DNA of 64,000 nucleotides from the IMG/VR virus record IMGVR_UViG_3300028833_000002. The stretch is one strand, 5' to 3'. Positions 18,947-61,754 of this stretch are shown here, in pieces. Source of the DNA: a virus (Duplodnaviria > Heunggongvirae > Uroviricota > Caudoviricetes). Positions within the stretch are counted from its first letter, which is position 1. Each line of letters begins with the position of its first letter. The translations under genes were made by a program, and so were the position numbers. A model generated the notes under the pieces. The model was not told where the DNA came from and did not search any database. It worked only from the letters and a program-made list of their open reading frames with translations.

Positions 18947-18947
18947 A

Positions 18948-18976: not shown

Positions 18977-19005
18977 AAAAGAAAAAGAATTGGAGGCAGC
19001 AATAA

Positions 19006-24713: not shown

Positions 24714-24788
24714 TTCCACGTCGTCAAGAGGCTCAAGACACCGCTCTCTAAAAGCGGCATTTCGAAGGTTCGAATCCTTCCGTGGAAA
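24714..24788 (+). tRNA. amber suppressor tRNA, anticodon CUA (reads UAG); Gln-like body with U1:A72
   Basis: The acceptor is ttccacg/cgtggaa. The anticodon arm is ccgct-ctCTAaa-agcgg. The T-arm is gaagg-ttcgaat-ccttc. It has its own promoter at 24398. Confidence 0.7.
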
Positions 24789-27710: not shown

Positions 27711-28052
27711 ATGGAAAAGCGTCAGGCTTTCTATCTCTATCTTGATGATATACGTGAGATAGACCCTATATGCAACCAATTTAAATATTACAAGCATTGT
27801 CATGTGGTTGATGAAGCAAAGTTTTTTGTTCAGTCAGCTATTAGTATTGGAGCGACTGAAATTTGGTTTGACCTTGACCACGACCTTGGCGACTATGCCC
27901 CATATGGTGGGGATGGTATTGAGTTAGTTAATTGGCTTGTTGAGATGTATCATGACAAGAACGTTGACTTCAAATTCCATTTCCATTCTATGAACCCTGT
28001 CGGCGTTCAGAATATGAGAAATGCAATTGAAAAGTATTGGGAGGAATTTTAA
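27711..28052 (+). CDS. hypothetical protein
   Basis: A ribosome-binding site is present. Confidence 0.5.
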   Translation: MEKRQAFYLYLDDIREIDPICNQFKYYKHCHVVDEAKFFVQSAISIGATEIWFDLDHDLGDYAPYGGDGIELVNWLVEMYHDKNVDFKFHFHSMNPVGVQNMRNAIEKYWEEF

Positions 28053-28906: not shown

Positions 28907-29113
28907 ATGCTTGATAATTGGAAAACCAATATACTTGACAATTGGAGAGCTGTAGATATAGAAGGTATTAAATCCGTAATAGCATATCGCGGTCATATTT
29001 TTCTCGACATTGAGGAATTACATCAATGGAAAATAGAAAATGAGTGGAATGGTATTGATATTGCTGTAACCAAAGAAGATATATTAAGAGAAGGAGAAAT
29101 ATATAATGACTAA
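28907..29113 (+). CDS. hypothetical protein Confidence 0.4.
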   Translation: MLDNWKTNILDNWRAVDIEGIKSVIAYRGHIFLDIEELHQWKIENEWNGIDIAVTKEDILREGEIYND

Positions 29114-38819: not shown

Positions 38820-39710
38820 ATGGAATTCAAGAAATATATTGATATTGAACGCTTAAAAGAAAAATATGCTATGGCTTTTAAGCCTGGTGAAATGATTACA
38901 GTTTCCGAGAAAATTGATGGCAGCAATGCCTCGTTTGACGGTAATCTTAATGCCTTCTCTCGTCGTAAGGTATTAGACGAAACAAATACCCTTAATGGCT
39001 TTTATGATTTTGTGAAAACACTTGATGCCACAAAGGTTATGGAGGTTCTTGGTGAGAACTTTATTGTCTTTGGTGAATGGTTGTGCAAGCATACTGTAAA
39101 ATACCCAGAAGATAAGATGCATAAGTTCTACGCCTTTGACGTATGGAATAAGGAAACAGCACAATACCTTCCTTGGAGTGAAGCAAAAAAGATTATCGCA
39201 GAACTTGGTCTTAACACAGTACCAATTTTTTATGAAGGCCCATTCACATCTTGGGATGACATTAATAAATTGGTTGGACAGACAAAAATGGGGGCTTCTC
39301 CTTGCGGGGAAGGACAGGTCGTAAAATCACAGGACAGACTTGACAACAAGTCCTCAAACACCCCGGCATATGTAAAAATTGTTGATGCACGTTTCTCTGA
39401 GGTAAAGGGTCAGAAGGAACAGAAGATGGTTGACCCTGAAAAAATTGCTGCAAAGCATGCTCAGGAAGCTCTTGCTGCAACTATCGTAACAGAAAGACGA
39501 GTAGAAAAACTCATACAGAAAATAATAGAAGACGGTCTTATTCCAGCAGAATGGGATGAAAAGGACCTTGGTACAATTGCAAAGCATCTTCCAAAGGCTG
39601 TATATGCGGACTGCGTAAAGGAAGAACCGGAAACAGTTGCTCAGATTGAAAACTTTGGTAAGATTGCGGCTGGCATTGCAATGAAGCTTGCAAGAGGACT
39701 GGTAAAATGA
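38820..39710 (+). CDS. ATP-dependent RNA ligase, Rnl2-like
   Basis: Nucleotidyltransferase motifs are present: I EKIDGSN, III FGEWL, IV EGQVVK, V YVKIV. Confidence 0.65.
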   Translation: MEFKKYIDIERLKEKYAMAFKPGEMITVSEKIDGSNASFDGNLNAFSRRKVLDETNTLNGFYDFVKTLDATKVMEVLGENFIVFGEWLCKHTVKYPEDKMHKFYAFDVWNKETAQYLPWSEAKKIIAELGLNTVPIFYEGPFTSWDDINKLVGQTKMGASPCGEGQVVKSQDRLDNKSSNTPAYVKIVDARFSEVKGQKEQKMVDPEKIAAKHAQEALAATIVTERRVEKLIQKIIEDGLIPAEWDEKDLGTIAKHLPKAVYADCVKEEPETVAQIENFGKIAAGIAMKLARGLVK

Positions 39711-41465: not shown

Positions 41466-42602
41466 ATGACGGACGTAAAAATTGTAACTGGATTAAATTA
41501 TGGTGATGAGTCAAAAGGACTCGTTGCCAATGCAGTAAGCACACCTACTTGCCTGAATATCTTACCATCTAATTCTTGTCAGAGAGCACACACAGTAGTT
41601 GAAAATGGAGTGAGAAAAGTGTTCCGTCATTTTGGTAGTGGTACACTTAAAGGAGCGGCTACCTATTTCACAGATAAGTTTCTTGTAAATCCTGCTATGT
41701 TTAGACAGGAATGGGAAGAACTTGCTGCAATGGGTATCACTCCGAAGGTGTATGTACGTTTAGGGGCTATGTGTGTAACTCCTATTGATATGTTTGCAAA
41801 TGTGAATGTTGAGGAACGTCGCGGCGAAAAATCTCATTCATCTACTGGTTGCGGTGTTTGGGAAACTATATGCCGTCATAAGACTTTAGCATTTTCACAG
41901 GGTATGTATGCGTGTGAAGATATAGTTGCATATTATGAAGAAGTCTTAAAAGATAAAAATGGCATTCTGCCGGAAAATGTAAAAGAGTTCTTGCATGGTG
42001 ATTGTCTTAAAGATAATATAAATGAAGACTTTACGTGGTTCTATGAACACGTTACCGTAATTAAAGACCAGTGGGAAGAAACACAACTTCTCCACTCTTA
42101 TCCACTTCTTGTGTTTGAGAATGGTCAGGGATTACTTCTTGATGATAGATATAGCTGCGATATTAACCATAATACCCCGGCATGTGTTGGCATGATAGAA
42201 GCTGAAAGAATACTTAATCAGAATTTTCTTAGAACAGAAGTTAATGTTGAAGCACTTTATGTAACACGTTCATATTACACTCGTCATGGTAAGGGACAGA
42301 TAGGCCTATGGAGTAATTGTGAATGTGATAAGGACGAAATTAATCCATGTATGTTTGATGCCACAAATGTGCCGAACCCAAATCAGGGCACTCTACGTTA
42401 TGGTAAAATTGATGAACTTGAAGCCAAGACAATCGCGGCGAGAGCGGTCAATGATAGTATAAGTCCATTCTTTGATGTTACCACTTCTATGGTGGTTACT
42501 CATTGTAATGAATATATGAATAATTATTTAATTGATGCCGCAAACGACCAGAAATTAAATCTTTATGTTTCTTATGACGAAACTAATATTCGTAAAGTTT
42601 AA
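41466..42602 (+). CDS. adenylosuccinate synthetase family protein (PurA/PurZ-like)
   Basis: GLNYGDESKG, QRAHTV, FENGQGLLLDDRYSCDINHNTP and YYTRHGKGQ match PurA blocks. The protein is short (378 aa). Confidence 0.7.
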   Translation: MTDVKIVTGLNYGDESKGLVANAVSTPTCLNILPSNSCQRAHTVVENGVRKVFRHFGSGTLKGAATYFTDKFLVNPAMFRQEWEELAAMGITPKVYVRLGAMCVTPIDMFANVNVEERRGEKSHSSTGCGVWETICRHKTLAFSQGMYACEDIVAYYEEVLKDKNGILPENVKEFLHGDCLKDNINEDFTWFYEHVTVIKDQWEETQLLHSYPLLVFENGQGLLLDDRYSCDINHNTPACVGMIEAERILNQNFLRTEVNVEALYVTRSYYTRHGKGQIGLWSNCECDKDEINPCMFDATNVPNPNQGTLRYGKIDELEAKTIAARAVNDSISPFFDVTTSMVVTHCNEYMNNYLIDAANDQKLNLYVSYDETNIRKV

Positions 42603-42677: not shown

Positions 42678-42757
42678 GCTCTCGTGGTGGAATTGGTAGA
42701 CACGTATGCCTTAGGAGCATATGTTAATTCGTGTGGGTTCGAGTCCCACCGGGAGCA
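42678..42757 (+). tRNA. tRNA-Leu(UAG), type II
   Basis: The loop is ctTAGga, the variable arm is long, and the T-loop is GTTCGAGTC. Confidence 0.7.
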
Positions 42758-42759
42758 CT

Positions 42760-42831
42760 GTGTACGTAGTGTAATGGTTAACATGGAAGGATGTGGCCCT
42801 TCCGATGTGGGTCCAATTCCCGCCGTACACC
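42760..42831 (+). tRNA. tRNA-His(GUG); CCA encoded at 42832-42834
   Basis: The acceptor is gtgtacg/cgtacac. The loop is atGTGgc. Confidence 0.6.
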
Positions 42832-42835
42832 CCAC

Positions 42836-42909
42836 CCCCCTGTAATCCAACCGGCAGAGATAGCGCTCTTAAACAGCGTCCAGTACCAGTTCAAATCTGG
42901 TCAGGGGGA
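42836..42909 (+). tRNA. type-I (short variable arm) tRNA with anticodon UAA; Gln-like D-arm
   Basis: The acceptor is ccccctg/caggggg. The anticodon arm is gcgct-ctTAAac-agcgt. The T-arm is accag-ttcaaat-ctggt. Confidence 0.5.
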
Positions 42910-43249
42910 CTTTGATATGACAATGTATGCGAAACATGGACTCGATTAATATAGGCGTTAATTCCTCCGCGGGAGCTGCTTCTCCATGTGCTGTAGGCTC
43001 CTCATTGTCACACAAACGCTCCACAGCGAAAGGTGGCGTAATTCATTCTAGGCAACGTCAAAGCCAAATCAGGAGCTTGGTGAATGTCATTAGAGGACAA
43101 GAAAAGAGCATACCTTTTCTATCCCATTCTTAGCCGAATCTTAAACCAAGGCGTGGATGTGGAAGGGCTTGGCCCGGATGGCAACGCAGACCAACTCACG
43201 AGTGTCTAGGCGTTGAGTAGGTTTAACTTCGGTGAAAATGATTATAACG

Positions 43250-44412: not shown

Positions 44413-45534
44413 ATGTTAAAGATTCAGGAGTTTATTTTTGCACATGAAAATTGGCGTGAACTTTTGTCTGCCGCACCATATAATCTTAAAATTACAGAAG
44501 ATGATGGTTTCGTTATCTTTAAGTATAATCAGATAGATTCTGACTTTAACGAAGAAATTTGCAAAGAAGCTCGTGGTCTTATTCTTGACTCTACTGACAA
44601 CTTTAAGGCTGTTAGAATGGCGTTTAAAAAGTTCTTTAATCTCGGGGAATCTCATGCCGCAAAAATTGATTGGAATACTGCGACAGCCGGAGAAAAACTT
44701 GACGGTAGCCTTATGTCTGTATGGTATGCTCGCGGCGAATGGCATTTAAGCACCAATGGTACCATTGATGCCTTTAAAGCTCCACTTAACGGTGTTGGTC
44801 CATACAAGAACTTCGGTGAGTTATTTACTTCTGTAATGCCATTAGATTTCTTCGAAGGTGAACACTTCGGTAAGAACTGGGCAGACTTAAACTTATGTTT
44901 CACTTTCGAGTTAGTTTCTCCTTATAACAAGGTTGTTATAGACTACCCTGAAACAAAGGTATACTTACTTTCTATGCGTGAGATGGACACACTTCACGAA
45001 ATTAGCGGTGATGTAGTTAGAACTTTTGGTAAGATTAACGGCCTCAACCTTCCACAAGAATACAAACTCAGTAATGAAAAGGAATTTTGTGAGCTTGTAG
45101 AGTCTATGCCGGACGGCCATGAAGGTATCGTAGTTCGTGATATGTACAATGAACGTGTAAAGATAAAGACAAAGAGATACTTTGAACTTCATCGTATGGT
45201 TAACAATGGTGTAATTACTATTGAAAGAATTGTAGAATTAATCAAAGCAAATGACTATGAAGAGCTTTTAGCCTACTATCCGGAGATGACAGAAAAATTC
45301 ACAAAAATTATGTATCAGATACAATCCGCTGATGCTTACATCAAAAGAGTAAAGGCAGAAGTTAACACTTGTAAGAAATTTCAGGCCAACCGTAAAGATT
45401 TTGCCGAGTTCGCAAAACAGCAGAAAATCCCGGCATTATACTTCGCCGCGCTGGATGGAAAGATAGACAATTTTGTTGAGAAATTAACCACAAATCAGTT
45501 CATTAAGATGTTTAAGATAGGAGAAGACATATGA
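44413..45534 (+). CDS. RNA-ligase-like nucleotidyltransferase (Rnl1-like)
   Basis: Motif I is GEKLDGS, motif IV EGIVVRD, motif V VKIKTKR. Confidence 0.6.
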   Translation: MLKIQEFIFAHENWRELLSAAPYNLKITEDDGFVIFKYNQIDSDFNEEICKEARGLILDSTDNFKAVRMAFKKFFNLGESHAAKIDWNTATAGEKLDGSLMSVWYARGEWHLSTNGTIDAFKAPLNGVGPYKNFGELFTSVMPLDFFEGEHFGKNWADLNLCFTFELVSPYNKVVIDYPETKVYLLSMREMDTLHEISGDVVRTFGKINGLNLPQEYKLSNEKEFCELVESMPDGHEGIVVRDMYNERVKIKTKRYFELHRMVNNGVITIERIVELIKANDYEELLAYYPEMTEKFTKIMYQIQSADAYIKRVKAEVNTCKKFQANRKDFAEFAKQQKIPALYFAALDGKIDNFVEKLTTNQFIKMFKIGEDI

Positions 45535-45779: not shown

Positions 45780-45808
45780 TTTACAAAAACCTTAATTTAT
45801 GCTATAAT
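45780..45808 (+). promoter_or_regulatory. promoter family copy
   Basis: TTTACA-17-TATGCTATAAT followed by the leader. Confidence 0.55.
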
Positions 45809-45840
45809 ATATATAGAAAATCAGGAAGGAACTAAAAACT

Positions 45841-46146
45841 ATGATGTCATTTGAAAATTTCGACAATTTTATGAACAAACTTATTGATAAGTTTCAGACA
45901 GCAGAAGATTTCTACAATAAAATTGATGCGGCACTTGGTAATTGTGCTTGTGAGCCGATTATCGAGCATAGTGGTCTTTATCTTGCAGTTCAGATTCTTG
46001 CGGCAGCCGTTGGTGATAAGAATGAATGGGTTGAATATTTCTTTTATGAAGCAAACATGAAGCCATTCACGGCCGAGGTAGATGATAGGAAAATTGTAAT
46101 TTGCAATAATCAAGACCTTTATCAGTTAATTTTGGGAGTGATTTAA
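45841..46146 (+). CDS. hypothetical protein Confidence 0.5.
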   Translation: MMSFENFDNFMNKLIDKFQTAEDFYNKIDAALGNCACEPIIEHSGLYLAVQILAAAVGDKNEWVEYFFYEANMKPFTAEVDDRKIVICNNQDLYQLILGVI

Positions 46147-46214
46147 TGAATACGCCGCGATTTCCTTTATATGAATTTATTTCATTTCATTTCATTTAAT
46201 ATTTCTCCTATAAA

Positions 46215-46350
46215 TTTTTTCCAAAGTTGGAAATTTTTTTCCAAGGTATTGAGGAATCATATGGTAATTTTTTTCCAAGGTTGGAAATTTTTTTCCAAGG
46301 TCTTGAAAAATCATATGGAAAATTTTTTCCAAGGTTGGAAATTTTTTTCC
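46215..46350. repeat. iteron array: about 2.5 direct repeats of a ~54-bp unit, each with the inverted repeat TTTCCAAGGTTGGAAA (candidate replication origin)
   Basis: Units run 46215-46267, 46268-46322 and 46323-46350. They are flanked by (ATTTC)x3 and a further TTGGAA...TTCCAA inverted repeat at 46384-46401. Confidence 0.55.
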
Positions 46351-46425
46351 TGTAGTATTTTTATTCCAAAACTACATTATTTTTGGAAGAAAATTTCCAA
46401 ATGATTTTTCGAGAGAGGTGATATA

Positions 46426-46965
46426 ATGACCTACCCAAATCAATTTGAAATGAAAATTATCAAAAAGAGAGAAGAGGAGGTTTTTCTTATGATAGATTGG
46501 AAAGATATTACAACGGCGGGAAATGTTCTATCTGCTTCTGCCTTTAAGTTATTTCTGTATTTATCAAAAAATAAGGACGGATATAACTTTTATTTTAGCC
46601 CTAAAGACTTTATAAATAACTTTGAAATGAGTGACAAGACGTATCGAAACGCACGTTTGGAACTTATAGAAAAAGGATATTTGGTTCAGAATGGAAATAC
46701 GCTGACATTTAATTCTAAAGGGGGATTAAATATAGACCCGGAAAGATTGCGTGAACAAATTCTTGAATTGGATAAAGAATTGGAAGCTATAGATATGCAA
46801 GCGGAAATGGAATATAAAGAATATTTAACCAAAAAGAACCTTAAACAGTTTAAAGAAGATAATATTCCAATCTCTTTATATATCGCGGCATTAAAGGAAG
46901 CCTTAAACCACGGTTATGAAATTAAAAACAAATATAGTTCTGTTGAATTAAAGGATATTATTTAA
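46426..46965 (+). CDS. candidate replication initiator / replisome-organiser N-domain protein
   Basis: It lies immediately downstream of the iteron array. A winged-helix-like segment reads FKLFLYLSKNKDGY...TYRNARLELIEKGYL. Confidence 0.5.
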   Translation: MTYPNQFEMKIIKKREEEVFLMIDWKDITTAGNVLSASAFKLFLYLSKNKDGYNFYFSPKDFINNFEMSDKTYRNARLELIEKGYLVQNGNTLTFNSKGGLNIDPERLREQILELDKELEAIDMQAEMEYKEYLTKKNLKQFKEDNIPISLYIAALKEALNHGYEIKNKYSSVELKDII

Positions 46966-46977
46966 GGGAGGTAAGTA

Positions 46978-47541
46978 ATGATAATTGGGATAGACATCGA
47001 CAACGTTCTAGTCAACACCACAGAGTGTGTGCTGGAATACCTAAACGAACGAACGGGACTTAATCTTAAACTGGAAGACATCAAGACCTACAGCATCGAA
47101 GATTATGTTCCGCCCGAAAACAGATTGCTTGTTCCCGAAGCCTTTGAATCAAAACATATGTGGAAAAAGGTTGACTTCATCGAGGGCGCAACAGAAGCAA
47201 TAAAGAAACTGGTTGAAGATGGTCATGAGATTTATTTTGCTACGGCTACCTTGCCGGAAAACCTTAAAAAGAAAATGAACCATCTTTCAAGGAATCTCGA
47301 TTTTCTTGGACTCGATTACATCAAAAGCCACACAATATGTATCACCAATAAACAGTTGCTTAGGTTTGATGTGATGATAGATGATTTTCTTGGTAATCTT
47401 CGCGGCGAAAGAACGTATGAATCTATTTGTTTGGCTTATCCGTGGAATGAGTTTACAGAAGAAGATGATAAAGATGAACGTCTTTATAGGGTAGATAATT
47501 GGCGTGAAATTTATTTGTTAATAAAGATATTTTTAGGTTAA
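46978..47541 (+). CDS. HAD-family 5'(3')-deoxyribonucleotidase-like
   Basis: The N-terminal motif is GIDIDNVL (DxD). Confidence 0.55.
   Translation: MIIGIDIDNVLVNTTECVLEYLNERTGLNLKLEDIKTYSIEDYVPPENRLLVPEAFESKHMWKKVDFIEGATEAIKKLVEDGHEIYFATATLPENLKKKMNHLSRNLDFLGLDYIKSHTICITNKQLLRFDVMIDDFLGNLRGERTYESICLAYPWNEFTEEDDKDERLYRVDNWREIYLLIKIFLG
47399..47409. repeat. exemplar TTCGCGGCGAA
   Basis: Perfect palindrome inside a CDS. Confidence 0.6.
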
Positions 47542-48997: not shown

Positions 48998-49246
48998 ATG
49001 AAGAAGATTGCACTTGCTGCACTTGTTGCTGTAATGGCAGTTGCTTGCTTCGCTTGCACCGCTCCTGGTTCTGAATCAAGCGATAAGGTAGAAGAAACAA
49101 CTGTAGTATCTGAAACTGTTCTCGAAACAGAAGCAGAAACAACTGTTGAATCTACTGAAGCTGAAACAGAAGCAGAAACAACAGAAGCTGAGACAGTTCT
49201 CGAAACAGAAGCAGAAGTATCTGAATCTGTTCTCGAAACAGAATAA
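48998..49246 (+). CDS. small lipoprotein with Glu/Thr repeats
   Basis: The lipobox is AVAC. ETEAETT repeats are shared with the protein at 17884. Confidence 0.5.
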   Translation: MKKIALAALVAVMAVACFACTAPGSESSDKVEETTVVSETVLETEAETTVESTEAETEAETTEAETVLETEAEVSESVLETE

Positions 49247-52316: not shown

Positions 52317-52440
52317 AAATATAGAAATTGAGAAAAGAGTATTTCAAAACATTTGTGAAACTTCGGTCCGATTCCGGGGTAGAGTCGCTCTAAGGGGCGA
52401 ACTGCTGGTTGCAATACCAAAGTCAATTTCTTAAATATAT

Positions 52441-52512
52441 AGGTCTTTGGTGTAACGGGAGCATATTCGCCTCCAAAGCGATAAGGTGTGGGTTCAAATC
52501 CTACAGGACCTG
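52441..52512 (+). tRNA. tRNA-Trp(CCA)
   Basis: The loop is ctCCAaa. Confidence 0.6.
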
Positions 52513-52835
52513 TTAATCGTCGTAGGTTCAAGTCCTACCCCCAAAGAATAAAATCTCTGAGGGGACAATCGGAGAGACGAGAGGAGATAACCTCTATAAA
52601 AGAACCATGTTTGCCGACTACACGTTAATATAAGCCGGGAAATTCGCCATCAGCACCACCCATTAAGGTGGATGGACGTGGAAGTAATGGTCCACCTTGG
52701 CACCCAACGTGTCAAGTAGCCGAGAGAATAAATGGCGGAGTAACTCAGACGGCTCTGAGCACTATCTTGAAAATAGTTGGTACCGTGAAGAGCGGTATGG
52801 GGCTCGACACCTCACCTCACTTCGCCGCCAAATAA

Positions 52836-52906
52836 TGCTCCTTAGTGAAGCGGTAACACAGTAGGCCCTGACCCTATAATCGAAGGTTCGAATCCTTCAG
52901 GAGCAA
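52836..52906 (+). tRNA. tRNA-Gln(CUG)
   Basis: The loop is ccCTGac. U1:A72 is present. Confidence 0.6.
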
Positions 52907-52912
52907 TTAAAT

Positions 52913-52986
52913 GCCGTTGTAGCTCAGTTAGTAGTAGCGCGTGTCTGAAGAACACGAGGTCGAAGGTGCAATCCCTTCCGGCGGCA
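52913..52986 (+). tRNA. tRNA-Phe(GAA)
   Basis: The loop is ctGAAga. Confidence 0.65.
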
Positions 52987-53086
52987 CTTAAAGTAATTAT
53001 AAGGATAACCTAGAGTCCTCAGAGTGCGCACCAAGTTCAGAATAAGGTTTCGGTGAAGTCTGAATGTCCTTTGTAATTACTTAGTA

Positions 53087-53159
53087 TGCGACAGTGGCCT
53101 AATGGATAGGGCAGCATCCTTCTAAGATGTTTGGTGAAGGTTCGATTCCTTCCTGTCGC
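53087..53159 (+). tRNA. tRNA-Arg(UCU)
   Basis: The loop is ctTCTaa. Confidence 0.65.
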
Positions 53160-53165
53160 GTTTGA

Positions 53166-53255
53166 TGGTCACATAAGCCTAATGGTAAGGCAGTTGTTTG
53201 CTAAACAATGAGTAATCGGTTATTCCGGTGTTTAGGTTCAAGTCCTAATGTGACC
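53166..53255 (+). tRNA. tRNA-Ser(GCU), type II
   Basis: The loop is ttGCTaa. The variable arm is long. Confidence 0.65.
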
Positions 53256-53265
53256 GCTTTATAAA

Positions 53266-53339
53266 TGACGGTGTGGTGAAGTGGTTTAACGCGGCCGGCC
53301 GCAACCCGGTTATTCGTAGGTTCAAATCCTACCACCGCC
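53266..53339 (+). tRNA. tRNA-Cys(GCA) (tentative)
   Basis: The loop is ccGCAac. There is one acceptor mismatch. Confidence 0.5.
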
Positions 53340-53534
53340 TTATGGGTTCCTTATGATATACAGAGCTATATAGCTATTCATAAGGTTGGATAAAGTGTTA
53401 GATTATTAGCACCGAAAATAAAATTCGATATAAGCCGAAATGTATAATACTAGTCAAAGATTTCGGTGTGCCAGTTTCCAAAGAATTTTGTTAAGTCTTC
53501 GGACGGAACTTTTTAGGGTGAGGGGCACAATTAT

Positions 53535-53618
53535 CGGCGTGTGGCGGAATTGGCAGACGCGCCAGCCTAAGGAGCTGGTGTCCTTCGGGACGTGTGGGTT
53601 CGAGTCCCACCACGCCGA
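53535..53618 (+). tRNA. tRNA-Leu, type II, anticodon AAG as folded (A34 is unusual)
   Basis: The loop is ctAAGga. The variable arm is long. Confidence 0.55.
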
Positions 53619-53639
53619 CTTTATCTTGAAAACTTAATA

Positions 53640-54236
53640 AAAAGTATGTTGTAACCATGTGTTAAAATGAGGGACTAATCATCTCTGCATGGGCGCGGCG
53701 GAACGGCTGAGAGGTCGGGTCAAGGGATACCTTGACAGGGTTTCTTTTCTGATGTTGAAAGGCTGAGGAACAAGATGGTATACCAGCCATCAAGAGAGAA
53801 GTCGCGGCACAAGGACAACGTGAGTAATGGCACACCTAACCTGGTTGCTCCAACAATAGACGCTCTCTGTGAGAGAATAACCCCGTAGACCACATCCGCA
53901 AGATGTGAGTAAATGCTGGGAACGCAAAATAATGGAGTTGAGCCGAGAACGGCTTGAAAAAGCTGGAATAAACCCGATGGTGGTGCGAGTAGCCCAAGGC
54001 TTAGACTGGTTATTAGATTTCTATAATTTAAGGAAAATCTGAACGATGGGTGAAAGTTGGAGGTAAACAAATCCTCTCAGTGCTTTAGGTTCTTCGGAAC
54101 TGCGGTAAGAAGTTTTAGAGCGACGGCTTTAAGGCTCAGACTTATCGTCACTGTGGCTGAATAATACGTAGCGTTGTTTAAGTATGGCGAACAAAAACCA
54201 GCAATGTATTTTTTATTAGGTTTTCAAGATAGATAT
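53640..54236 (+). ncRNA. ~600-nt non-coding, GC-enriched, structured region inside the tRNA island (unknown RNA; candidate group-I-intron-like or Y-RNA-like element)
   Basis: Stops are dense in all three + frames. Many complementary segments are present (for example gggatacc...ggtataccagcc). The only ORF is a minus-strand one (53720-54070) with no ribosome-binding site. Confidence 0.3.
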
Positions 54237-54309
54237 GCCCTCATAGCTCAGTTGGCAGAGCACCGTCTTGATAAGGCGGGTGTCGAAGGTTCAATCCCTT
54301 CTGAGGGCA
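54237..54309 (+). tRNA. tRNA-Ile(GAU)
   Basis: The loop is ttGATaa. Confidence 0.7.
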
Positions 54310-54312
54310 CTG

Positions 54313-54393
54313 TGCCGGAGGCCGAATAGTGTAGTGGTTAGCACGCCAAGAGATACAGACTTGGAAACAGCGGTTCAAATCCGCTTTGGGTGG
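54313..54393 (+). ncRNA. tRNA-like element with canonical D- and T-arms, unpaired acceptor and a 9-nt anticodon-position loop
   Basis: tagtgtagtggttagcac and agcgg-ttcaaat-ccgct are present. I could not close an acceptor helix. Confidence 0.3.
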
Positions 54394-54791
54394 ACCGGAC
54401 TTAAAAGCGCTAGTCCAGTAAGTGCATTGCTGCCATATTAATGCTTAATATGGTTCGAGCCATAGAAATATGGTGAAAGTCCCTTTGATGATACAGCCAG
54501 AAGGGCGGAGAGCGAGTAAGTCTTATAGGTCGCGGCCTATAAGTACCGAGGACATGCAAAACTGATGTTATGGAATATCCCGGCACCGTGTTGTCGTTAG
54601 AGATGCATCAGGCTCACACACGGATATGTGCCTATAATTCAATGGTAGAATAGCGGTCTTTGTGAAAATAGTTTAATGTAAAACTTTGAACCGAATGGTT
54701 TGAAATATGAGTTCGATTCTCATTTTTCGCGCTAAACCGTCTATCCCAGTTCAACTCTGGGTGGGCGCACTTTGGAAAAATTTATAAAATA

Positions 54792-57320: not shown

Positions 57321-57950
57321 TTGGCATACATTTATAAAATCACAAATCTTATCAATGGCAAACTTTATATAGGTAAAACTTATAATTCTATTTAGGAAAG
57401 ATTTAAAGAGCATTGTAAAGATAGTCAAAGAGAACGATGCGAAAAAAGACCTTTATATAGTGCCATGAGAAAATATGGAACTGAAAATTTCACAATAGAA
57501 TTAATTGAGGAAACTTCTGTTCCAGAGGAGAGAGAAAAATATTGGATTGAATATTATGGTTCTTTCAAAAATGGTTATAATGCAACAATAGGCGGTGACG
57601 GGAAACCTTATATAGATAGAGATTTGGTAGTTGCCACTTATAAAGCTACATTAAATCAGGCAGAGGTTGCAAGAATTATGAATATTTCTACTGATAGCGT
57701 TAGTTTAATTCTTAAAGAAAAAGATGTAGACACAATTCCCTCTACTCTAGTTAGCCAAAGAGTTAATGGTAAAGTTGTAAATCAATATTCTCTTGATGGT
57801 GAATATATACAATCTTTTCCGTCAGCTTTAGCGGCGGCAAGAGCTTTAGGGAAAATAACTCCAACATCTAAAGGTGCTTCTTCTCAAATCTCTTCAGTTT
57901 GTAGAGGTAAAAGGAAAAGTGCTTATGGATACAAGTGGAGTTGGGGATAA
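57321..57950 (+). CDS. GIY-YIG homing-endonuclease-like protein; TTG start; 1 in-frame TAG
   Basis: YIYKITNLINGKLYIGKT...R...E...N are present. An AAGGAG ribosome-binding site lies 11 nt before TTG 57321. The gene is next to the tRNA island. Confidence 0.55.
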
Positions 57951-58092
57951 ATTATTCCCAACAAATATACGGGGCGCGGGACTGCAAGGGGTGGTCATCT
58001 GTCTTGCAAACAGAAAATCAGCTGGATTCGATTTCCAGGCGCTCCACTTATCATCCGGCTTGGTGAAGCCTTTGAATTCACCGTCCTTTCTT

Positions 58093-58164
58093 GGCCCTAT
58101 CGTCTAGCGGTTAGGACGTCAGCTTTTCACGCTGAAAACCCCAGTTCGATTCTGGGTAGGGTCA
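58093..58164 (+). tRNA. tRNA-Glu(UUC)
   Basis: The loop is ttTTCac. Confidence 0.7.
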
Positions 58165-58253
58165 TCAGATTGAAGCAGACTTGACGCTTACTTCGTAAGT
58201 TTTTGGGTACTTATACAGAAAAAATCAGCGTCATACATATTCTCAATCTTTAT

Positions 58254-58327
58254 GGGAGATTAGCTCAGCTGGTCAGAGCGGAACCCTGTTAAGGTTACGG
58301 TCATAGGTTCAAATCCTATATCTCCCG
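58254..58327 (+). tRNA. tRNA-Asn(GUU)
   Basis: The loop is ctGTTaa. Confidence 0.6.
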
Positions 58328-58331
58328 CTAT

Positions 58332-58402
58332 GGTCTATTCGTTCAACGGTAGGACGGCCGACTGTCTATCGGCAGATAGGGGTTCGATTCCCCTATGGAC
58401 CG
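58332..58402 (+). tRNA. tRNA-Asp(GUC)
   Basis: The loop is ctGTCta. Confidence 0.65.
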
Positions 58403-58493
58403 CTTAGTATCCGATTCGTTACTTGGACGTATTCCAAGCCAATTCCACAAATTACGACGGACGGCTCTACTAATCCATTAATTTAATTTATAT

Positions 58494-58564
58494 AGAGGAT
58501 GTGGTGTAATGGGAGCATACTTCATTTGGGGTGAAGGGGAGCAGTTCAAATCTGACATCTTCTA
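58494..58564 (+). tRNA. tRNA-Pro(UGG)
   Basis: The loop is ttTGGgg. Confidence 0.6.
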
Positions 58565-58570
58565 TCGTAT

Positions 58571-58639
58571 GAAGTGAGGGCAAATGGTAAGTCATTTAGT
58601 TACAAACTAAAAGGAGTGGGTTCGATTCCCATCGCTTCT
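58571..58639 (+). tRNA. atypical tRNA, anticodon ACA as folded (3-bp D-stem)
   Basis: The acceptor is gaagtga/tcgcttc. The loop is ttACAaa. Confidence 0.35.
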
Positions 58640-58642
58640 TTC

Positions 58643-58712
58643 GCGGCGAGGACAAATGGAAAGTCGCCGTCCTCATAAGTCGGAGATAGTAGGTTCGATT
58701 CCTACCGCCGCA
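58643..58712 (+). tRNA. tRNA-Met/fMet/Ile2 (CAU)
   Basis: The loop is ctCATaa. The 5' acceptor is formed by a copy of the TCGCGGCGA motif. Confidence 0.6.
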
Positions 58713-59014
58713 ATCGGTCGTCGCAGACCAAGTATTGGTTGCTATTAACCAATTTAGAGTGTAGATGGTGAATGGTCTTCTACATAGTCCATCATACTCT
58801 ACCAGACACAGTAGAAGAGTGGGTTGGAAGTTTTTTATCATGTTTCTTACAAAAATACATGGTTGACAGGTAGACCAAAGAGAGCCTACTGCTGAACGAG
58901 GAGAGAGGACGTTCCGGTTTTCCCACTAGCACCGTAACGTTAGTAGGGAGCGGAGCACTGCTCAGTGTGTGGTCGTTGGCGGGATGGAGTCATCGTGAAC
59001 AAGAATTCCATCCA

Positions 59015-59098
59015 AATTTATGGACAAGTGTGGAAAGCGGCGAAACCAGCGGACTGTAAATCCGTGACATTAGAAACACCGAAGGTTCGAGTCCTTCC
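59015..59098 (+). tRNA. tRNA-Tyr(GUA), type II
   Basis: The loop is ctGTAaa. Confidence 0.7.
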
Positions 59099-59342
59099 TT
59101 GTCCATTATGTTGAAGCAGTTTAATGAGATACTTCATAACAGAATTTAAGGATGACACATTCTATTATATTTGATTTCTCGTCAAGAAATCGCGGCTAGC
59201 CCAAGGCAGAAATTGGGCATTTACTTCTCATTAAGACATTCTCAACAGTTATTTTTTAAAATTGACAGAAGCAGTATGAACACTTACTTCATTAGACATG
59301 CAATCTGATTTTTAGTCGTGTTCGTTATATTCTCTGTCCTCA

Positions 59343-59413
59343 GCAGATGTAGTTTAATGGTAAAACCTCCGGCCTCCACCCGGAAAATATGAGTCCGATT
59401 CTCATTATCTGCT
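59343..59413 (+). tRNA. tRNA-Gly(UCC)
   Basis: The loop is ccTCCac. Confidence 0.65.
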
Positions 59414-59429
59414 TTAGCCGAAGCATTAG

Positions 59430-59507
59430 AAAACGGTTACTTCAATTGGTTTGAAAATTTCTTTGCTCAGAAATAGTGCGGTTCGAGTCCGTTTAACCCG
59501 TTTTCAC
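59430..59507 (+). ncRNA. tRNA-like element: perfect 7-bp acceptor (gaaaacg/cgttttc), T-arm-like GGTTCGAGTCC, non-canonical anticodon region (6-bp stem with 6-nt loop, or 8-nt loop)
   Basis: Hand fold. Confidence 0.3.
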
Positions 59508-59604
59508 CTTTCTCGGTCATTAGTTTTAAGTCGATGCAATATATACGGTTACTTCGACAGCCTGTTAACCTGTAATTGATACCTTCCGTATATAATTTTC
59601 TCGA

Positions 59605-59677
59605 CTATATGCTCCTGTAGCACAATTGGTAGTGCGCGAAACTTGTAATTTCGAGGTTCTCGGTCCGAGTCCGAGTG
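59605..59677 (+). tRNA. tRNA-Thr(UGU)
   Basis: The loop is ctTGTaa. Confidence 0.7.
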
Positions 59678-59685
59678 GGAGCTTA

Positions 59686-60098: not shown

Positions 60099-61754
60099 AT
60101 GAGCAGAATAGCAAGAGAAATTAAGGCAGAAAACAAGACAAAGAACACAGTAACAAACTTTATGGGCGGCAAGTCTTATACAATTAATCCGATTGATACG
60201 CTTAAATTAGTTGCGGCTTCATCAATCTTTGGTGAACCATCTTATTACCGTTCAAATGTAAGAGAAGCAAGATACCGTTGCGACAGACTGGTTGAAAACT
60301 TCTTTCCAGATTACATTGGTAAGACAACAACAGAAATCTTTGAAGATGTAATTGACAATGCTCTTTCTTATGATTTCGGCGCAACACTCGAATTTGCCGC
60401 AGAACTTAGAAATACCTATAATATGAGATTAAACCCACAGGTAATCATGGTTCGTGCCGCAATCCACGAGGGTAGAGCAAAGTTCACATCTGAAAACCCT
60501 GGTCTTTTCGCGGCAATAAATGATAAGGTAATGGCAAGAGCAGATGAACCAGCAACTCAGCTTGCATATTACATCTACAAGAACGGCGGCAAGTCAAAGC
60601 TCCCATCTGTATTAAAGAGAAGCATTGCTGATAAGCTCTCAAAGCTCGATGCATATGCGGTTAATAAGTATAAAAATGCTGAAATCGGCATGATAAATGC
60701 CGTTCGTCTTACACACGCAAATTCTCCAGTGTTAGATGACCTCTTAAATGACAATTTAAAGGTTTCAGATGCCGACGAAACATGGGAACAGAAGCGCTCA
60801 CGCGGCATGGGTTGGAAGGAAATCTTCAACTCAACAAACATGGGACACATGGCACTTTTAAGAAACCTTAGAAACGTTTTCGAGGAAGTTGAAGATATTA
60901 ACTTCGCTAAGAAATACCTTAAGAAGTTAAAGGATGGTGTACTTCGCGGCAAGCAGTTCCCATTCAGATACTACACAGCAATGGGTGTTATCGAAGCATC
61001 AAGAGTTAACTACAAGTCCCTTATCCTCGATACTCTTGAAGAATGTATGGATATTGCTATCGACAATATGCCAAAGTTAAAGGGTAAGACAATGTGCTTA
61101 TCTGATAACAGTGGTTCTGCTTGGGGCGGTATCACATCAGAGTATGGTAGCGTTGTAGTCGCCGAAATCGACAACCTTTCTTCTGTAATTGCTGGAAAGC
61201 TCTCAGACGAAGGTTATGTTGGTAAGTTCGGTGATAAGTTAAAGGTCTTCCCAGTTTCCAAGAGAAATGGATGCTTAATTCAGGCAAAGGAAATCAGCAG
61301 AGATAAGTCTCACGATGTTGGTGGTTCTACTGAAGGCGGCATTTGGGAGTTCCTTATCAACGCAATCAATGATGGTGAGTTCTACGATAATATCTTTATC
61401 TTCTCTGATATGCAGGCTGGACACGGTGGCCTTTACGGCACATCGGTTCAGATGAGCAGATACAGCAGCAAGTATGGTGTTGATGGTGGACGTTATATCG
61501 ACGTTTACAAGTTAGTTAAGGAATACCGTCAGAAGGTAAACCCAAAGGTCAATGTCTTCATGGTGCAGACTGCCGGCTACAACAACGTAATCTTACCAGA
61601 ATACTCTTACAGAACTGCTATCCTCTCCGGATGGACAGGTAAGGAAGTTAGCTTCGCGGCAGACTTCATTAAGAGATGGGATGATATTGAGGACAGACAG
61701 AACGCCCCAAGGCAGAAGTCAAGGTCAAATCTTCCACCAGTAAGATATAGATAA
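60099..61754 (+). CDS. rsr: Ro60/Rsr orthologue (TROVE domain plus vWA/MIDAS)
   Basis: The TROVE signature is GGKSYTINPIDTLKLVAASSIFGEPSYY. The C-terminal MIDAS is DNSGSAW. The size is about 551 aa. An AAGGAGG ribosome-binding site is present. Confidence 0.75.
   Translation: MSRIAREIKAENKTKNTVTNFMGGKSYTINPIDTLKLVAASSIFGEPSYYRSNVREARYRCDRLVENFFPDYIGKTTTEIFEDVIDNALSYDFGATLEFAAELRNTYNMRLNPQVIMVRAAIHEGRAKFTSENPGLFAAINDKVMARADEPATQLAYYIYKNGGKSKLPSVLKRSIADKLSKLDAYAVNKYKNAEIGMINAVRLTHANSPVLDDLLNDNLKVSDADETWEQKRSRGMGWKEIFNSTNMGHMALLRNLRNVFEEVEDINFAKKYLKKLKDGVLRGKQFPFRYYTAMGVIEASRVNYKSLILDTLEECMDIAIDNMPKLKGKTMCLSDNSGSAWGGITSEYGSVVVAEIDNLSSVIAGKLSDEGYVGKFGDKLKVFPVSKRNGCLIQAKEISRDKSHDVGGSTEGGIWEFLINAINDGEFYDNIFIFSDMQAGHGGLYGTSVQMSRYSSKYGVDGGRYIDVYKLVKEYRQKVNPKVNVFMVQTAGYNNVILPEYSYRTAILSGWTGKEVSFAADFIKRWDDIEDRQNAPRQKSRSNLPPVRYR

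What the first reader, a model, noticed from the sequence alone, without database searches (positions are those of the whole stretch)
46150..46965. Candidate replication origin: iterons, an AT-rich region and an adjacent initiator gene
There are about 2.5 direct repeats of a ~54-bp unit. Each unit contains the palindrome TTTCCAAGGTTGGAAA. The array is flanked by (ATTTC)x3 and another TTGGAA/TTCCAA inverted repeat.

Immediately downstream lies a gene (46426) with a winged-helix-like segment typical of initiator or replisome-organiser proteins. The 77-aa track ORF across the repeats (46171-46404) is a repeat-translation artefact.
Basis: partly seen in the sequence, partly recalled or inferred. 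Interest (0 to 1): 0.6.

Follow-up and report, generated by a model that had tools for sequence, protein, structure and literature searches.

The report
Phage repeat array with binder gene
A large gut or rumen phage carries a conserved cassette of repeated palindromic DNA sites next to the gene for the small winged-helix protein that most likely binds them; it is laid out like a plasmid-type replication origin, but that function is unproven, and in sister phages the same DNA-binding domain is fused to a DNA-cutting enzyme that sits where the repeats would be.

Summary
A 54-bp unit is repeated 2.6 times at 46211-46350. It is built from six copies of an 18-bp palindrome, TTGGAAA-N4-TTTCCAA, a motif clustered nowhere else in the 64 kb. 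A T-rich tract with (ATTTC)n precedes it. A 179-aa gene follows it, encoding an initiator-class winged helix (HTH_36; PHROG 'replication initiation protein', N-terminal part only) plus a helical tail.

Comparative data show a cassette. Ten of 10 stand-alone homolog loci (28-97% identity) carry the same layout: GC clamp or terminator, T-rich tract, conserved box, repeat array, promoter/SD, gene. The repeat word co-varies with the recognition helix. The array is more conserved than the flanking genes.

In 5 of 5 loci where the same domain is fused to an I-TevI-type GIY-YIG nuclease, the array is absent. One of these is a syntenic sister phage in which the nuclease domain occupies the array's position.

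Binding of the array by the adjacent protein is well supported. 'Replication origin' is the best single reading (about 0.45) but is not shown. There is no skew change and no replisome genes nearby, the cassette is dispensable in a sister phage, and the protein has no recognisable helicase-recruiting domain. An autoregulatory operator array is the main rival.

The parts
45780..45808 (+). Context: strong sigma70-type promoter (TTTACA-17-TGcTATAAT) of the upstream 101-aa gene (45841-46146). No terminator-like site lies between it and the array, so read-through into the array is possible.
   Evidence: 11 of 12 consensus matches, TG extension; no terminator listed between 46146 and 46426.
46153..46162 (.). 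Left boundary 'GC clamp', CGCCGCGATT. Relatives have the same GCCGCG motif or a GC-rich terminator hairpin at this position.
   Evidence: Sequence. Same motif in L002, L008 and L029. Terminator hairpins in L010 and L015 and L013/L014.
46163..46200 (+). AT-rich tract, T-rich on the gene strand, containing (ATTTC) x4.8 at 46175-46197. Candidate DNA-unwinding element.
   Evidence: TRF. (83% AT over 46163-46216). (T/(A+T) = 0.68 over nine loci, against a background of 0.465).
46201..46222 (+). Conserved non-coding box ATTTCTCCTATAAATTTTTTCC at the junction between the T-rich tract and the array. Function unknown.
   Evidence: Near-identical string in L010. ATTTCTC(C/T) box found 178-258 nt before the start codon in L002, L010, L014-L016, L018, L028 and L029. 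Unique in the window, so not a general promoter motif.
46211..46350 (.). 54-bp tandem repeat, 2.6 copies: the repeat array proper.
46227..46244 (.). Dyad site 1, TTGGAAATTTTTTTCCAA (perfect 18-bp palindrome with an N4 centre).
   Evidence: 0 mismatches.
46261..46278 (.). Dyad site 2, ATGGTAATTTTTTTCCAA (degenerate left half).
   Evidence: 2 mismatches, family D2.
46281..46298 (.). Dyad site 3, TTGGAAATTTTTTTCCAA.
   Evidence: 0 mismatches.
46315..46332 (.). Dyad site 4, ATGGAAAATTTTTTCCAA.
   Evidence: 1 mismatch.
46335..46352 (.). Dyad site 5, TTGGAAATTTTTTTCCTG (degenerate right half).
   Evidence: 2 mismatches.
46370..46380 (+). Proximal conserved box AACTACATTAT. Putative -10 element of the gene's own promoter (inferred).
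   Evidence: The same CTAC(A/T)T box lies near the gene-proximal end of the array in L008, L009, L013, L016, L018 and L029. In L029 it is the -10 of a 10-of-12 sigma70-type promoter. No promoter scoring >=9 of 12 is found inside the window's own array.
46383..46414 (.). Inverted partial copy of the repeat unit, containing dyad site 6 (46383-46400, TTGGAAGAAAATTTCCAA) and abutting the ribosome-binding site. Candidate autoregulatory operator. Together with 46301-46332 it can form a long hairpin or cruciform.
   Evidence: I1: 32-nt arms, 88% complementary; 1 mismatch; ssDNA dG -27.4 kcal/mol, z -6.35.
46411..46421 (+). Shine-Dalgarno region GAGAGAGGTGA.
   Evidence: A conserved GGAGGTGA precedes the start codon in homolog loci.
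46426..46965 (+). Gene for the 179-aa protein: N-terminal YPNQ motif, winged helix (aa 25-95, nt 46498-46710; recognition helix DKTYRNARLELIE) and a helical tail (aa 105-178, nt 46738-46959).

Best explanation
Window 46153-46965 is a self-contained 'site array plus binder' cassette. Dimers of the 179-aa winged-helix protein bind the six GGAAA-N4-TTTCC palindromes directly upstream of their own gene.

The most likely function is an accessory, iteron-type replication origin with its own small initiator. In this reading, protein loaded on the array distorts and opens the adjacent T-rich, repeat-bearing tract (46163-46200), and the phage replisome then enters. The inverted site at 46383-46414, next to the promoter/SD, lets the protein repress its own synthesis, as Rep proteins of iteron replicons do.

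**Shown:** the repeats, the domain class, the conserved architecture, the co-variation of site and recognition helix, and the constraint on the array.

**Inferred:** binding itself, melting of the T-rich tract, replisome recruitment and autoregulation.

A second, better-supported layer concerns nucleases. The cassette's DNA-binding module has repeatedly been joined to homing-endonuclease nuclease domains. Wherever that has happened, the array is gone.
For: 1. **Non-random array, unique in the window**.

3. **Conserved architecture in 10 of 10 stand-alone homolog loci** (28-97% identity): GC clamp or terminator, T-rich tract, ATTTCTCY box, ~200-bp repeat array, promoter/SD, gene. Upstream 8-mer repeat coverage has z = 3.2-10.8.

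4. **Co-variation of recognition helix and repeat word.** YRNA(R/K) pairs with GGAA/TTCC words, FRRAR with GGACAA, and YYRAM with TTTTGAGA. By direct reading of L012, YDRAK pairs with CTGTCAA/TTGACAG.

5. **The non-coding array is more conserved than the flanking genes** between the window and L002: 97.5% against 89-94%.

6. **More cis-elements than an operator needs.** There is a strand-asymmetric T-rich tract with short repeats and a conserved box. The box is not the gene's promoter in L028, L029 and L020, where a sigma70-type promoter lies between the array and the gene.

7. **The layout matches the defining features of iteron origins**: iterons plus an adjacent DUE with internal repeats, with Rep binding one DUE strand (PMC4980987).

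8. **Precedent.** ICP1 Odn is a HEG-type nuclease that captured the iteron-binding domain of the PLE RepA initiator and needs the semi-palindromic iterons to cut that origin (PMC8263062). Here, nuclease fusions with an identical recognition helix (L005) lack the array.
Against: - No experiment and no compositional footprint. GC skew is positive throughout. 4-fold-site skew does not flip at 46.2 kb, though with all genes co-oriented this is a weak test for a phage.
- No replisome genes in the 64 kb, and none beside the homologs in L014, L016 and L018.
- No DnaA boxes.
- The protein is small. Only its winged helix resembles initiators, and its tail matches only generic helical bundles. The tail is retained in several nuclease fusions (P0006, P0008, P0022). 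That fits a dimerisation or DNA-binding role better than helicase recruitment.
- Foldseek ranks GntR, MarR and MntR regulators as high as initiators.
- The sister phage L005 (185.8-kb contig) has no array, so the element is dispensable.
- In small circular elements with their own Rep_3 initiator, the domain is an HNH-endonuclease partner, not the Rep.
- The AT-rich tract is not the most AT-rich segment of the window.
- T4's oriE iterons, the nearest large-phage analogue, have themselves never been tied to origin activity (PMC3016281).
Confidence: 0.45

Rival explanations
1. Purely transcriptional control. The array is a multi-site operator or enhancer for an autoregulated winged-helix transcription factor. 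That factor switches its own transcription unit (46426 to about 48926: itself, an NT5C nucleotidase and three small genes) on or off during infection, with no role in replication.
For: - The sites lie directly upstream of the gene, or across its promoter and SD. The inverted site at 46383-46414 abuts the SD.
- In L028 a half-site lies inside the spacer of a TTGACT-17-TATAAT promoter.
- Promoters lie between the array and the gene in L020, L028 and L029.
- No strong promoter follows until 49636, so the gene heads a small operon.
- The fold resembles GntR, MarR, MntR and LexA regulators as much as it resembles initiators.
- The cassette sits among early and accessory genes and is dispensable.
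- I-TevI shows that such DNA-binding domains can act as autorepressors (PMC2988022).
Against: - Six to ten sites spread over ~200 bp is more than known autorepressors use.
- So is a conserved, strand-asymmetric T-rich tract with short repeats and an extra conserved box on the far side of the array.
- The sequence relatives annotated in PHROGs are initiators, not regulators.
- The nuclease fusions carry no operator upstream. The I-TevI-style autorepression model does not predict this.
- This reading is not exclusive of the origin reading, because Rep proteins also autoregulate.
Confidence: 0.3
2. Homing-endonuclease biology is the primary function. The stand-alone protein plus array would be either a nuclease-less remnant of a homing endonuclease with its target or operator sites, or an anti-homing immunity device in which a nuclease-free binder occludes the sites that the fused GIY-YIG enzyme of competing phages would cut.
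For: - The same module is fused to I-TevI-class GIY-YIG domains (P0004, P0006, P0008, P0022, P0031).
- It also directly follows NUMOD4+HNH ORFs in small circles.
- Array and nuclease are mutually exclusive: 10 of 10 against 0 of 5.
- In L005/L007 the nuclease domain replaces the array precisely, between ~90%-identical flanks.
- The recognition helix is identical in L005 and the window.
Against: - A decaying remnant would not keep a full-length protein, a conserved N-terminal motif and tail, or a complex conserved cis-region across lineages at 28-47% identity.
- Nor would it keep an array more conserved than its neighbouring genes.
- Stand-alone forms are the large majority of the family: about 5 of 51 sampled members have a nuclease domain.
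- If the array were only a target, deleting it would be the simplest escape.
Confidence: 0.13
3. A plasmid-like partition centromere with its centromere-binding protein, or a packaging site (cos/pac) with a small-terminase-like binder. Lambda Nu1 is likewise a ~180-aa winged-helix protein with a coiled coil, and it binds repeated R sites just upstream of its gene.
For: The size and domain order (winged helix followed by helical tail), and a repeated-site array directly upstream of the gene, resemble both ParR/parC-type centromeres and lambda cosB/Nu1. This comparison rests on established knowledge and was not tested by homology.
Against: - No ParA/ParM-type ATPase and no large-terminase gene lies next to the cassette or anywhere in the Pfam-scanned parts of the window (19-63 kb). 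The downstream gene is an NT5C nucleotidase.
- No Pfam, PHROG or NCBIfam hit to terminase small subunits or to centromere-binding proteins.
- The cassette moves between unrelated accessory neighbourhoods in different phages.
- It is absent from a sister phage. That would be lethal for a packaging site.
Confidence: 0.05
4. The repeats act as RNA (tandem weak terminators or attenuators, or a structured leader), or are a functionless low-complexity expansion.
For: Each unit reads as a short hairpin followed by a U-run (UUUCCAAGGUUGGAAAUUUUUUU). The region folds better than shuffles as RNA (z -3.8). Read-through from the 45780 promoter is possible.
Against: - No meaningful Rfam match.
- The stems are 6-7 A/U-rich pairs with too few G-C pairs for the terminator scan to report them.
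- In relatives the repeat word changes with the protein's recognition helix, not so as to preserve RNA pairing.
- In several relatives terminators precede the array and promoters follow it, so the array is largely untranscribed there.
- The array is under stronger constraint than the flanking genes.
Confidence: 0.04

Closest known systems
Iteron-type theta replicons (RK2 TrfA/oriV, F RepE, pPS10 RepA, Rep_3 plasmids such as lactococcal pCI305-type replicons)
   Same: The order of elements matches: an AT-rich tract with internal short repeats, an array of ~20-bp-spaced initiator sites, and an inverted site at the start of the adjacent gene for a winged-helix binder. Rep proteins autoregulate through such inverted sites (PMC4980987; the pCI305 layout is from my own knowledge).
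   Different: - The protein does not match Rep3_N, Rep3_C or any other Rep family model.
- It has one winged helix plus a helical tail, not two winged helices.
- The sites are palindromes rather than simple direct iterons.
- There are no DnaA boxes.
- The host is a ~180-kb phage genome that can do without the cassette.
PLE RepA (RepA_N family) with its iteron origin, and phage ICP1 Odn, the origin-directed nuclease
   Same: - Semi-palindromic repeats are bound by an initiator's N-terminal winged-helix domain.
- That DNA-binding domain co-varies with its repeats.
- A homing-endonuclease-type nuclease has captured the same DNA-binding domain (PMC8263062).
- Here, GIY-YIG fusions share the cassette's recognition helix.
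   Different: - Odn is a phage weapon against a satellite's origin located elsewhere. Here the fusion sits at the very locus of the array in a sister phage and replaces it, giving an allelic, homing-like arrangement.
- The nuclease is GIY-YIG (TIGR01453 class) at the N-terminus, not T5orf172 at the C-terminus.
- Neither origin function nor cleavage has been tested here.
Phage replisome organisers and initiators with origin repeats (lambda O/ori-lambda; SPP1 G38P/oriL; DnaD-like loaders of Firmicutes phages)
   Same: The N-terminal winged helix is of the same sequence class (PHROGs 270, 186, 678) and a similar fold (DnaD-NTD, DnaB-NTD). Repeats with dyad symmetry lie next to an AT-rich tract.
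   Different: - Those proteins are 230-380 aa, with a C-terminal domain that recruits the helicase or its loader. This protein matches only the first ~100 profile positions.
- Their origins usually lie inside or beside a replication gene module. This cassette lies among RNA-repair, tRNA and nucleotide-metabolism genes.
Bacteriophage T4 oriE iterons with repEA/repEB
   Same: A large lytic-type phage with an array of evenly spaced short repeats next to small early genes. Similar iterons occur in syntenic regions of relatives, and the origin is non-essential (PMC3016281).
   Different: T4's repeats are 12-nt direct repeats. No link between them and origin activity has been established. No homology between RepEB and this protein was tested or found.
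I-TevI and other GIY-YIG homing endonucleases that double as autorepressors
   Same: Modular GIY-YIG nuclease plus a separate sequence-specific DNA-binding domain. That domain can bind an operator without cutting (PMC2988022). The fusions here are of the I-TevI nuclease class.
   Different: - I-TevI's binding domain is a zinc finger, minor-groove helix and small HTH, not an HTH_36 winged helix with a helical tail.
- The fusions here have no operator array upstream.
- The window's protein has no nuclease domain at all.

Membership tests
Iteron-type replication origin with cognate Rep | Array of repeated initiator-binding sites at roughly helical-repeat multiples | tested here: met
   Six 18-bp dyads spaced 34, 20, 34, 20 and 48 bp apart, with a 54-bp super-repeat. 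Analogous arrays lie upstream of all 10 stand-alone homologs.
Iteron-type replication origin with cognate Rep | Adjacent AT-rich DNA-unwinding element containing short repeats | tested here: inconclusive
   A T-rich tract with (ATTTC) x4.8 is present and is conserved in position and strand asymmetry. It is not the most AT-rich segment of the window, and unwinding was not tested.
Iteron-type replication origin with cognate Rep | Adjacent gene encodes a protein that binds the repeats specifically | not testable with these tools
   Indirect support only: a winged-helix fold, co-variation of recognition helix and repeat word, and co-occurrence in 10 of 10 loci. An EMSA or footprint is needed.
Iteron-type replication origin with cognate Rep | The protein belongs to a recognised initiator family over its whole length | tested here: not met
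   Only HTH_36 at threshold (25.3 against 25 bits). It matches PHROG 270 over positions 15-98 of 383 only. No NCBIfam hit. No significant PDB sequence match.
Iteron-type replication origin with cognate Rep | Replication actually initiates at the site (skew shift, marker frequency, autonomous replication) | tested here: inconclusive
   There is no GC-skew change in the window and no flip at 4-fold sites. However, only 64 of ~180 kb is available, and phage skew follows transcription.
Phage replisome organiser / DnaD-like helicase loader | N-terminal winged helix of the DnaD-NTD / HTH_36 class | tested here: met
Phage replisome organiser / DnaD-like helicase loader | C-terminal DnaD/DnaB_2-type or other helicase/loader-binding domain | tested here: not met
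   No Pfam hit in residues 100-179 other than a spurious coiled-coil match. The tail matches only generic helical bundles.
Phage replisome organiser / DnaD-like helicase loader | Location in a replication gene module | tested here: not met
   Neighbours are RNA ligases, PurZ, NT5C and tRNAs. The same holds for L014, L016 and L018. Only L012 lies ~2 kb from a PHP/PolIII-alpha gene.
GIY-YIG homing endonuclease | GIY-YIG catalytic domain | tested here: not met
   The window's protein has none. Its relatives P0004, P0008 and P0022 carry a Pfam GIY-YIG domain; P0004 and P0008 also hit TIGR01453.
GIY-YIG homing endonuclease | Separate sequence-specific DNA-binding module shared with the nuclease-bearing relatives | tested here: met
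   80% identity between the window protein (aa ~6-100) and the C-terminal half of P0004, with an identical recognition helix.
Autoregulated winged-helix transcription factor with operator | Palindromic sites overlapping its own promoter or translation start | tested here: inconclusive
   The inverted site at 46383-46414 abuts the SD. In L028 a half-site lies in a promoter spacer. No convincing sigma70-type promoter was found inside the window's own array.
Small terminase with cos/pac site | Terminase small-subunit homology and an adjacent large-terminase gene | tested here: not met
   No such Pfam, PHROG or NCBIfam hits. The downstream gene is NT5C.

The most novel reading that the evidence does not exclude
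The cassette is a phage accessory origin/initiator module that serves as the natural homing target of endonucleases built from its own parts. GIY-YIG (and, in small circular elements, HNH) nuclease domains have repeatedly captured the resident initiator-type winged-helix domain. This automatically gives them specificity for the iteron array in nuclease-free genomes. They cut there and are copied in, replacing the array with the nuclease-coding segment. The wHTH coding sequence and the upstream gene act as homology arms.

This would be an allelic, phage-versus-phage version of ICP1's origin-directed nuclease. It would also be a concrete route by which homing endonucleases are born and choose their targets.
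Probability: 0.25. Interest if true: 0.75.

Novelty: new variant of a known kind. Interest (0 to 1): 0.55.

Why it matters
**Origins in uncultivated large phages.** If the origin reading holds, this cassette gives a sequence-defined, experimentally portable origin/initiator pair for a clade of uncultivated ~180-kb, TAG-recoded Clostridia phages. No replication biology is known for this clade. The protein family has about 700 detectable relatives and no match in cultured phages or plasmids.

**A clean test system whatever the function.** The data define a protein-DNA recognition pair with natural specificity variants: GGAA/TTCC, GGACAA, TTTTGAGA and CTGTCAA words with matching recognition helices.

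**How homing endonucleases acquire targets.** Arrays and nuclease domains on the same binding module are strictly mutually exclusive. So far, only ICP1 Odn documents a nuclease borrowing an initiator's iteron-binding domain. This finding makes that question directly testable.

Tried and rejected
- **Direct similarity searches found nothing.** Megablast of the locus and tblastn of two family members against INPHARED phages and PLSDB plasmids gave no matches. No annotated relative could be used.
- **First viral-contig scan** with the single protein found nothing. An alignment-based scan was needed.
- **Rfam** gave only a sub-threshold miRNA-family match, judged chance.
- **RNA and ssDNA folding z-scores** merely restate the inverted repeats. 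They were not taken as evidence for an RNA element.
- **'TTCTCCTATAAAT' as a recurrent phage promoter motif:** rejected, because it is unique in the window.
- **DnaA boxes:** at chance level in the window and absent from the array.
- **PADLOC:** no defence-system hit for the window protein.
- **The 77-aa ORF as a real gene:** rejected, because its frame is not conserved.
- **ATG at 46489** (preceded by GAGGAGG) as the true start: considered and rejected. The YPNQ N-terminus encoded from 46426 is conserved in homologs.
- **Small-terminase/cos and ParR/centromere readings:** rejected for lack of partner genes and homology.
- **I-TevI-style operator for the nuclease fusions:** rejected, because the fusions have no array.
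Full report
**What is there**

The stop codon of a 101-aa gene is at 46144-46146, and the next gene starts at ATG 46426. Between them lies a 279-bp non-coding stretch. Tandem Repeats Finder reports ATTTC x4.8 at 46175-46197 and a 54-bp unit x2.6 at 46211-46350 (91% matches, score 238). This is the strongest tandem repeat in the 64-kb window.

The core of the unit is an 18-bp palindrome, TTGGAAA-N4-TTTCCAA. It has six copies, at 46227, 46261, 46281, 46315, 46335 and 46383. At <=2 mismatches the window holds 9 hits against 0.96 expected by chance, and six of them are here. The exact core GGAAA-N4-TTTCC occurs nowhere else in the window.

The last copy belongs to a 32-nt inverted copy of the unit (46301-46332 / 46383-46414, 88% complementary). 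This inverted copy abuts the Shine-Dalgarno sequence. It lets the proximal part fold into a long hairpin as single-stranded DNA (dG -27.4 kcal/mol, z -6.35). The palindrome it named, TTTCCAAGGTTGGAAA, is the alternative pairing of the same half-sites.

**The gene**

ORF 46426-46965 encodes 179 aa.
- Pfam gives HTH_36 at threshold (25.3 against 25 bits).
- PHROGs gives 'replication initiation protein' (phrog_270, 4.9e-7), but only over profile positions 15-98 of 383. It also gives a DnaD-like loader match (2.7e-4).
- An AlphaFold2 model built on 51 family members is confident (mean pLDDT 88.8). It shows a winged helix at residues 25-95 followed by helices at 105-122, 124-137 and 149-178.

So the winged-helix claim holds and the domain is of the initiator class. 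The protein as a whole belongs to no described initiator family.

**The genome**

The window is from a large phage.
- Nearly all genes are on the + strand, and GC skew is positive throughout.
- There are 26 tRNAs, including a CTA-anticodon suppressor.
- The cassette sits among accessory genes: two RNA ligases, a Pnkp-like kinase/HD protein, Thg1, PurZ-like adenylosuccinate synthetase, NT5C nucleotidase, a TROVE protein and GIY-YIG endonucleases.
- No polymerase, primase or replicative helicase gene is in the window.
- The closest relatives lie on contigs of 180,267 and 185,807 bp.

**Comparative evidence for a cassette**

An exhaustive HMMER search found 704 relatives at E <= 0.001. Many are full-length ~178-aa proteins that align end to end with the window's protein. 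The alignment includes the N-terminal YPNQ motif, which fixes ATG 46426 as the start, and the helical tail.

I recovered the DNA around stand-alone homologs from 28% to 97% identity: L002, L008, L010, L012, L014, L015, L016, L018, L020, L028 and L029. Each shows the same order of elements:
- a GCCGCG clamp or a GC-rich terminator hairpin;
- a 50-70-bp AT tract, T-rich on the gene strand (T/(A+T) = 0.68 in nine loci against a background of 0.465), with TATTT/ATTTC periodicity;
- a conserved box ATTTCTC(C/T), 178-258 nt before the start codon;
- an array of ~200 bp of repeated sites about two helical turns apart;
- a CTAC(A/T)T box;
- GGAGGTGA and then the gene.

Three measurements support selection and specific pairing.
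- *Repeat content.* In the 300 bp upstream, 8-mer repeat coverage exceeds shuffles with z = 3.2-10.8 in all 10 stand-alone loci scored (the nine relatives above other than L028 and L029, plus the window).
- *Co-variation.* The repeat word changes with the protein's recognition helix. YRNA(R/K) proteins have [T/C]GGAA[A/T]/TTCC words, FRRAR (L029) has GGACAA, and YYRAM (L020) has TTTTGAGA. By direct reading of L012, YDRAK has CTGTCAA/TTGACAG.
- *Constraint.* Between the window and L002 the array is 97.5% identical (5 mismatches in 198). The flanking genes are 89-94% identical (76 mismatches in 929).

Together these make specific binding of the array by the adjacent protein very likely. I put it at about 0.85. 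It is inferred, not shown.

**Nuclease fusions**

In the syntenic relatives L005/L006 (185.8-kb contig) and L007, the flanks align at about 90%. However, window 46147-46437 is replaced by ~310 bp of unrelated sequence encoding a GIY-YIG domain. That domain is fused in frame, through a TAG codon, to the same winged helix. The recognition helix is identical, and the 245 bp encoding the tail are missing.

Other fusions keep the tail (P0006, P0008, P0022). Their nuclease is of the I-TevI class: TIGR01453, with P0008 above the curated cutoff.

None of the five fusion loci has an upstream array (z -1.1 to 1.8; gaps -1 to 156 bp). That is 10 of 10 against 0 of 5. A hand-calculated Fisher exact test gives about 3e-4 if the loci were independent, but the window and L002 are not independent.

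In complete circular contigs of 5-7 kb (terminal repeat equal to the assembler k-mer), a shorter homolog directly follows or overlaps a NUMOD4+HNH_3 endonuclease ORF. Again there is no array. One circle, L030, carries a bona fide Rep_3 initiator of its own.

The module is thus a DNA-binding unit found in two states: alone with a site array, or joined to a homing-type nuclease without one. The only precedent I found is ICP1 Odn. It is a HEG-type nuclease carrying a copy of the PLE RepA iteron-binding domain, and it needs the semi-palindromic iterons to cut that origin (PMC8263062).

**Origin or operator?**

*For an origin:*
- The element order is that of iteron replicons: iterons plus a repeat-bearing DUE, with Rep binding one DUE strand (PMC4980987).
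- The cassette has cis-elements an operator does not need, namely the strand-asymmetric T-rich tract and the distal box.
- In L020, L028 and L029 a good sigma70-type promoter lies between the array and the gene. The distal elements are therefore not that promoter.
- The annotated sequence relatives are initiators.

*Against an origin:*
- There is no skew inflection and no flip of 4-fold-site skew across 46.2 kb. GC4 is -0.15 on the left and -0.27 on the right, and the CI of the difference spans 0.
- There are no DnaA boxes.
- No replisome genes lie nearby, here or in L014, L016 and L018.
- The protein has no helicase-recruiting domain, and its tail is retained in nuclease fusions.
- The cassette is dispensable in L005.
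- The AT tract is not extreme.
- T4's oriE iterons, the nearest large-phage analogue, remain functionally unproven (PMC3016281).

*For an operator:*
- The inverted site sits at the SD, and a half-site lies within the L028 promoter spacer.
- The gene heads a small operon, with no strong promoter until 49636.
- The fold resembles GntR and MarR regulators.

The two readings are not exclusive, since Rep proteins autoregulate. I assign about 0.45 to an accessory iteron-type origin with autoregulation and about 0.30 to transcriptional control only. I assign about 0.13 to a primarily homing-related role, with the rest going to centromere, packaging or RNA readings.

One speculative observation: if the conserved CTACATTAT box (46372-46380) is a -10 element, dyad 5 would be centred near -41.5 and dyad 6 near +6. 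This is an inference from spacing only.

**Verdict**

This is a new, uncharacterised family and a new variant of the iteron/initiator theme. It has an unusual and testable link to the birth of homing endonucleases.

Noticed in passing
window 24714-24788 (tRNA, anticodon CTA); window 1-19000; also L005 ~10080, L007, L008 1276, L009, L016, L018: TAG appears to be read as an amino acid, most likely Gln. There is a suppressor tRNA. Treating TAG as sense raises coverage by ORFs of >=100 aa in the structural region (1-19 kb) from 0.71 to 0.97, but hardly changes the early region. In relatives, in-frame TAGs fall at conserved Gln positions: the 'PNQ' and 'KNQDG' motifs, and a TAG in L007 where L005 has CAG. 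So recoding is concentrated in late genes.
   Followed up: partly
window 41466-42602: PurZ-like adenylosuccinate synthetase (phrog_1211 '2-aminooxy adenylosuccinate synthetase' 5.5e-34; Pfam Adenylsucc_synt 1.8e-14). This raises the possibility that the phage replaces adenine with 2-aminoadenine (a Z-genome). No other Z-pathway genes were looked for.
   Followed up: no
window 19006-45534 and 60099-61754; tRNA arrays 42678-42910, 52440-54732, 57971-59683: Unusually rich RNA-repair and tRNA toolkit: 26 tRNAs, two RNA ligases (38820-39710 RNA_ligase; 44413-45534 Rnl1-type), a Pnkp-like AAA_33+HD protein (23029-23991), Thg1 tRNA-His guanylyltransferase (29106-29918), a cREC_REC cyclic-phosphate-processing domain protein (27711-28052) and a TROVE/Ro-like protein (60099-61754).
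   Followed up: partly
window 21444-22196 and 57465-57950: Two further free-standing homing-endonuclease-like genes: a GIY-YIG domain at the C-terminus of a 250-aa protein, and a 161-aa protein with a NUMOD1 motif. The genome is actively colonised by such elements.
   Followed up: no
window 43300, 44164, 45780, 49636; probably also ~54780 and ~56220: Near-identical strong sigma70-type promoters (TTGACT/TTTACA-17-TGnTATAAT). At 45797-45830 the promoter is followed by a leader, TATAATATATATAGAAAATCAGGAAGGA. The same string is translated as 'YVIIYIENQERKIL' at the N-termini of the mechanical ORFs 54792 and 56230, and it recurs in L005 and L008. This looks like a repeated early promoter/leader module.
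   Followed up: no
L030, L033, L037, L040, L043 (genome-contig hits): Complete circular elements of 5-7 kb, binned into gut or rumen Clostridia, Elusimicrobia and Nanosyncoccus MAGs. They carry a serine resolvase and either a Rep_3 initiator (L030) or an unannotated 443-469-aa protein with an 'AIDLDG' motif (primase-polymerase-like by eye only). They also carry a NUMOD4+HNH endonuclease ORF directly followed by a 'VPNQR' winged-helix ORF, some with in-frame TAG.
   Followed up: partly
window 49090-49243 (within ORF 48998-49246): A 39-bp coding tandem repeat x4.1 (65% matches), giving a Glu/Thr-rich repeat in a small protein with an N-terminal signal-like segment.
   Followed up: no
window 46718-46733 and 46962-46978: The 245-bp segment encoding the helical tail (present in the window and L002, absent in L005/L007) is bracketed by a short direct repeat: TCTAAAGGGGG at one end and TTTAAGGGAGG at the other. 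This suggests the L005 lineage lost the tail by deletion between these repeats.
   Followed up: no
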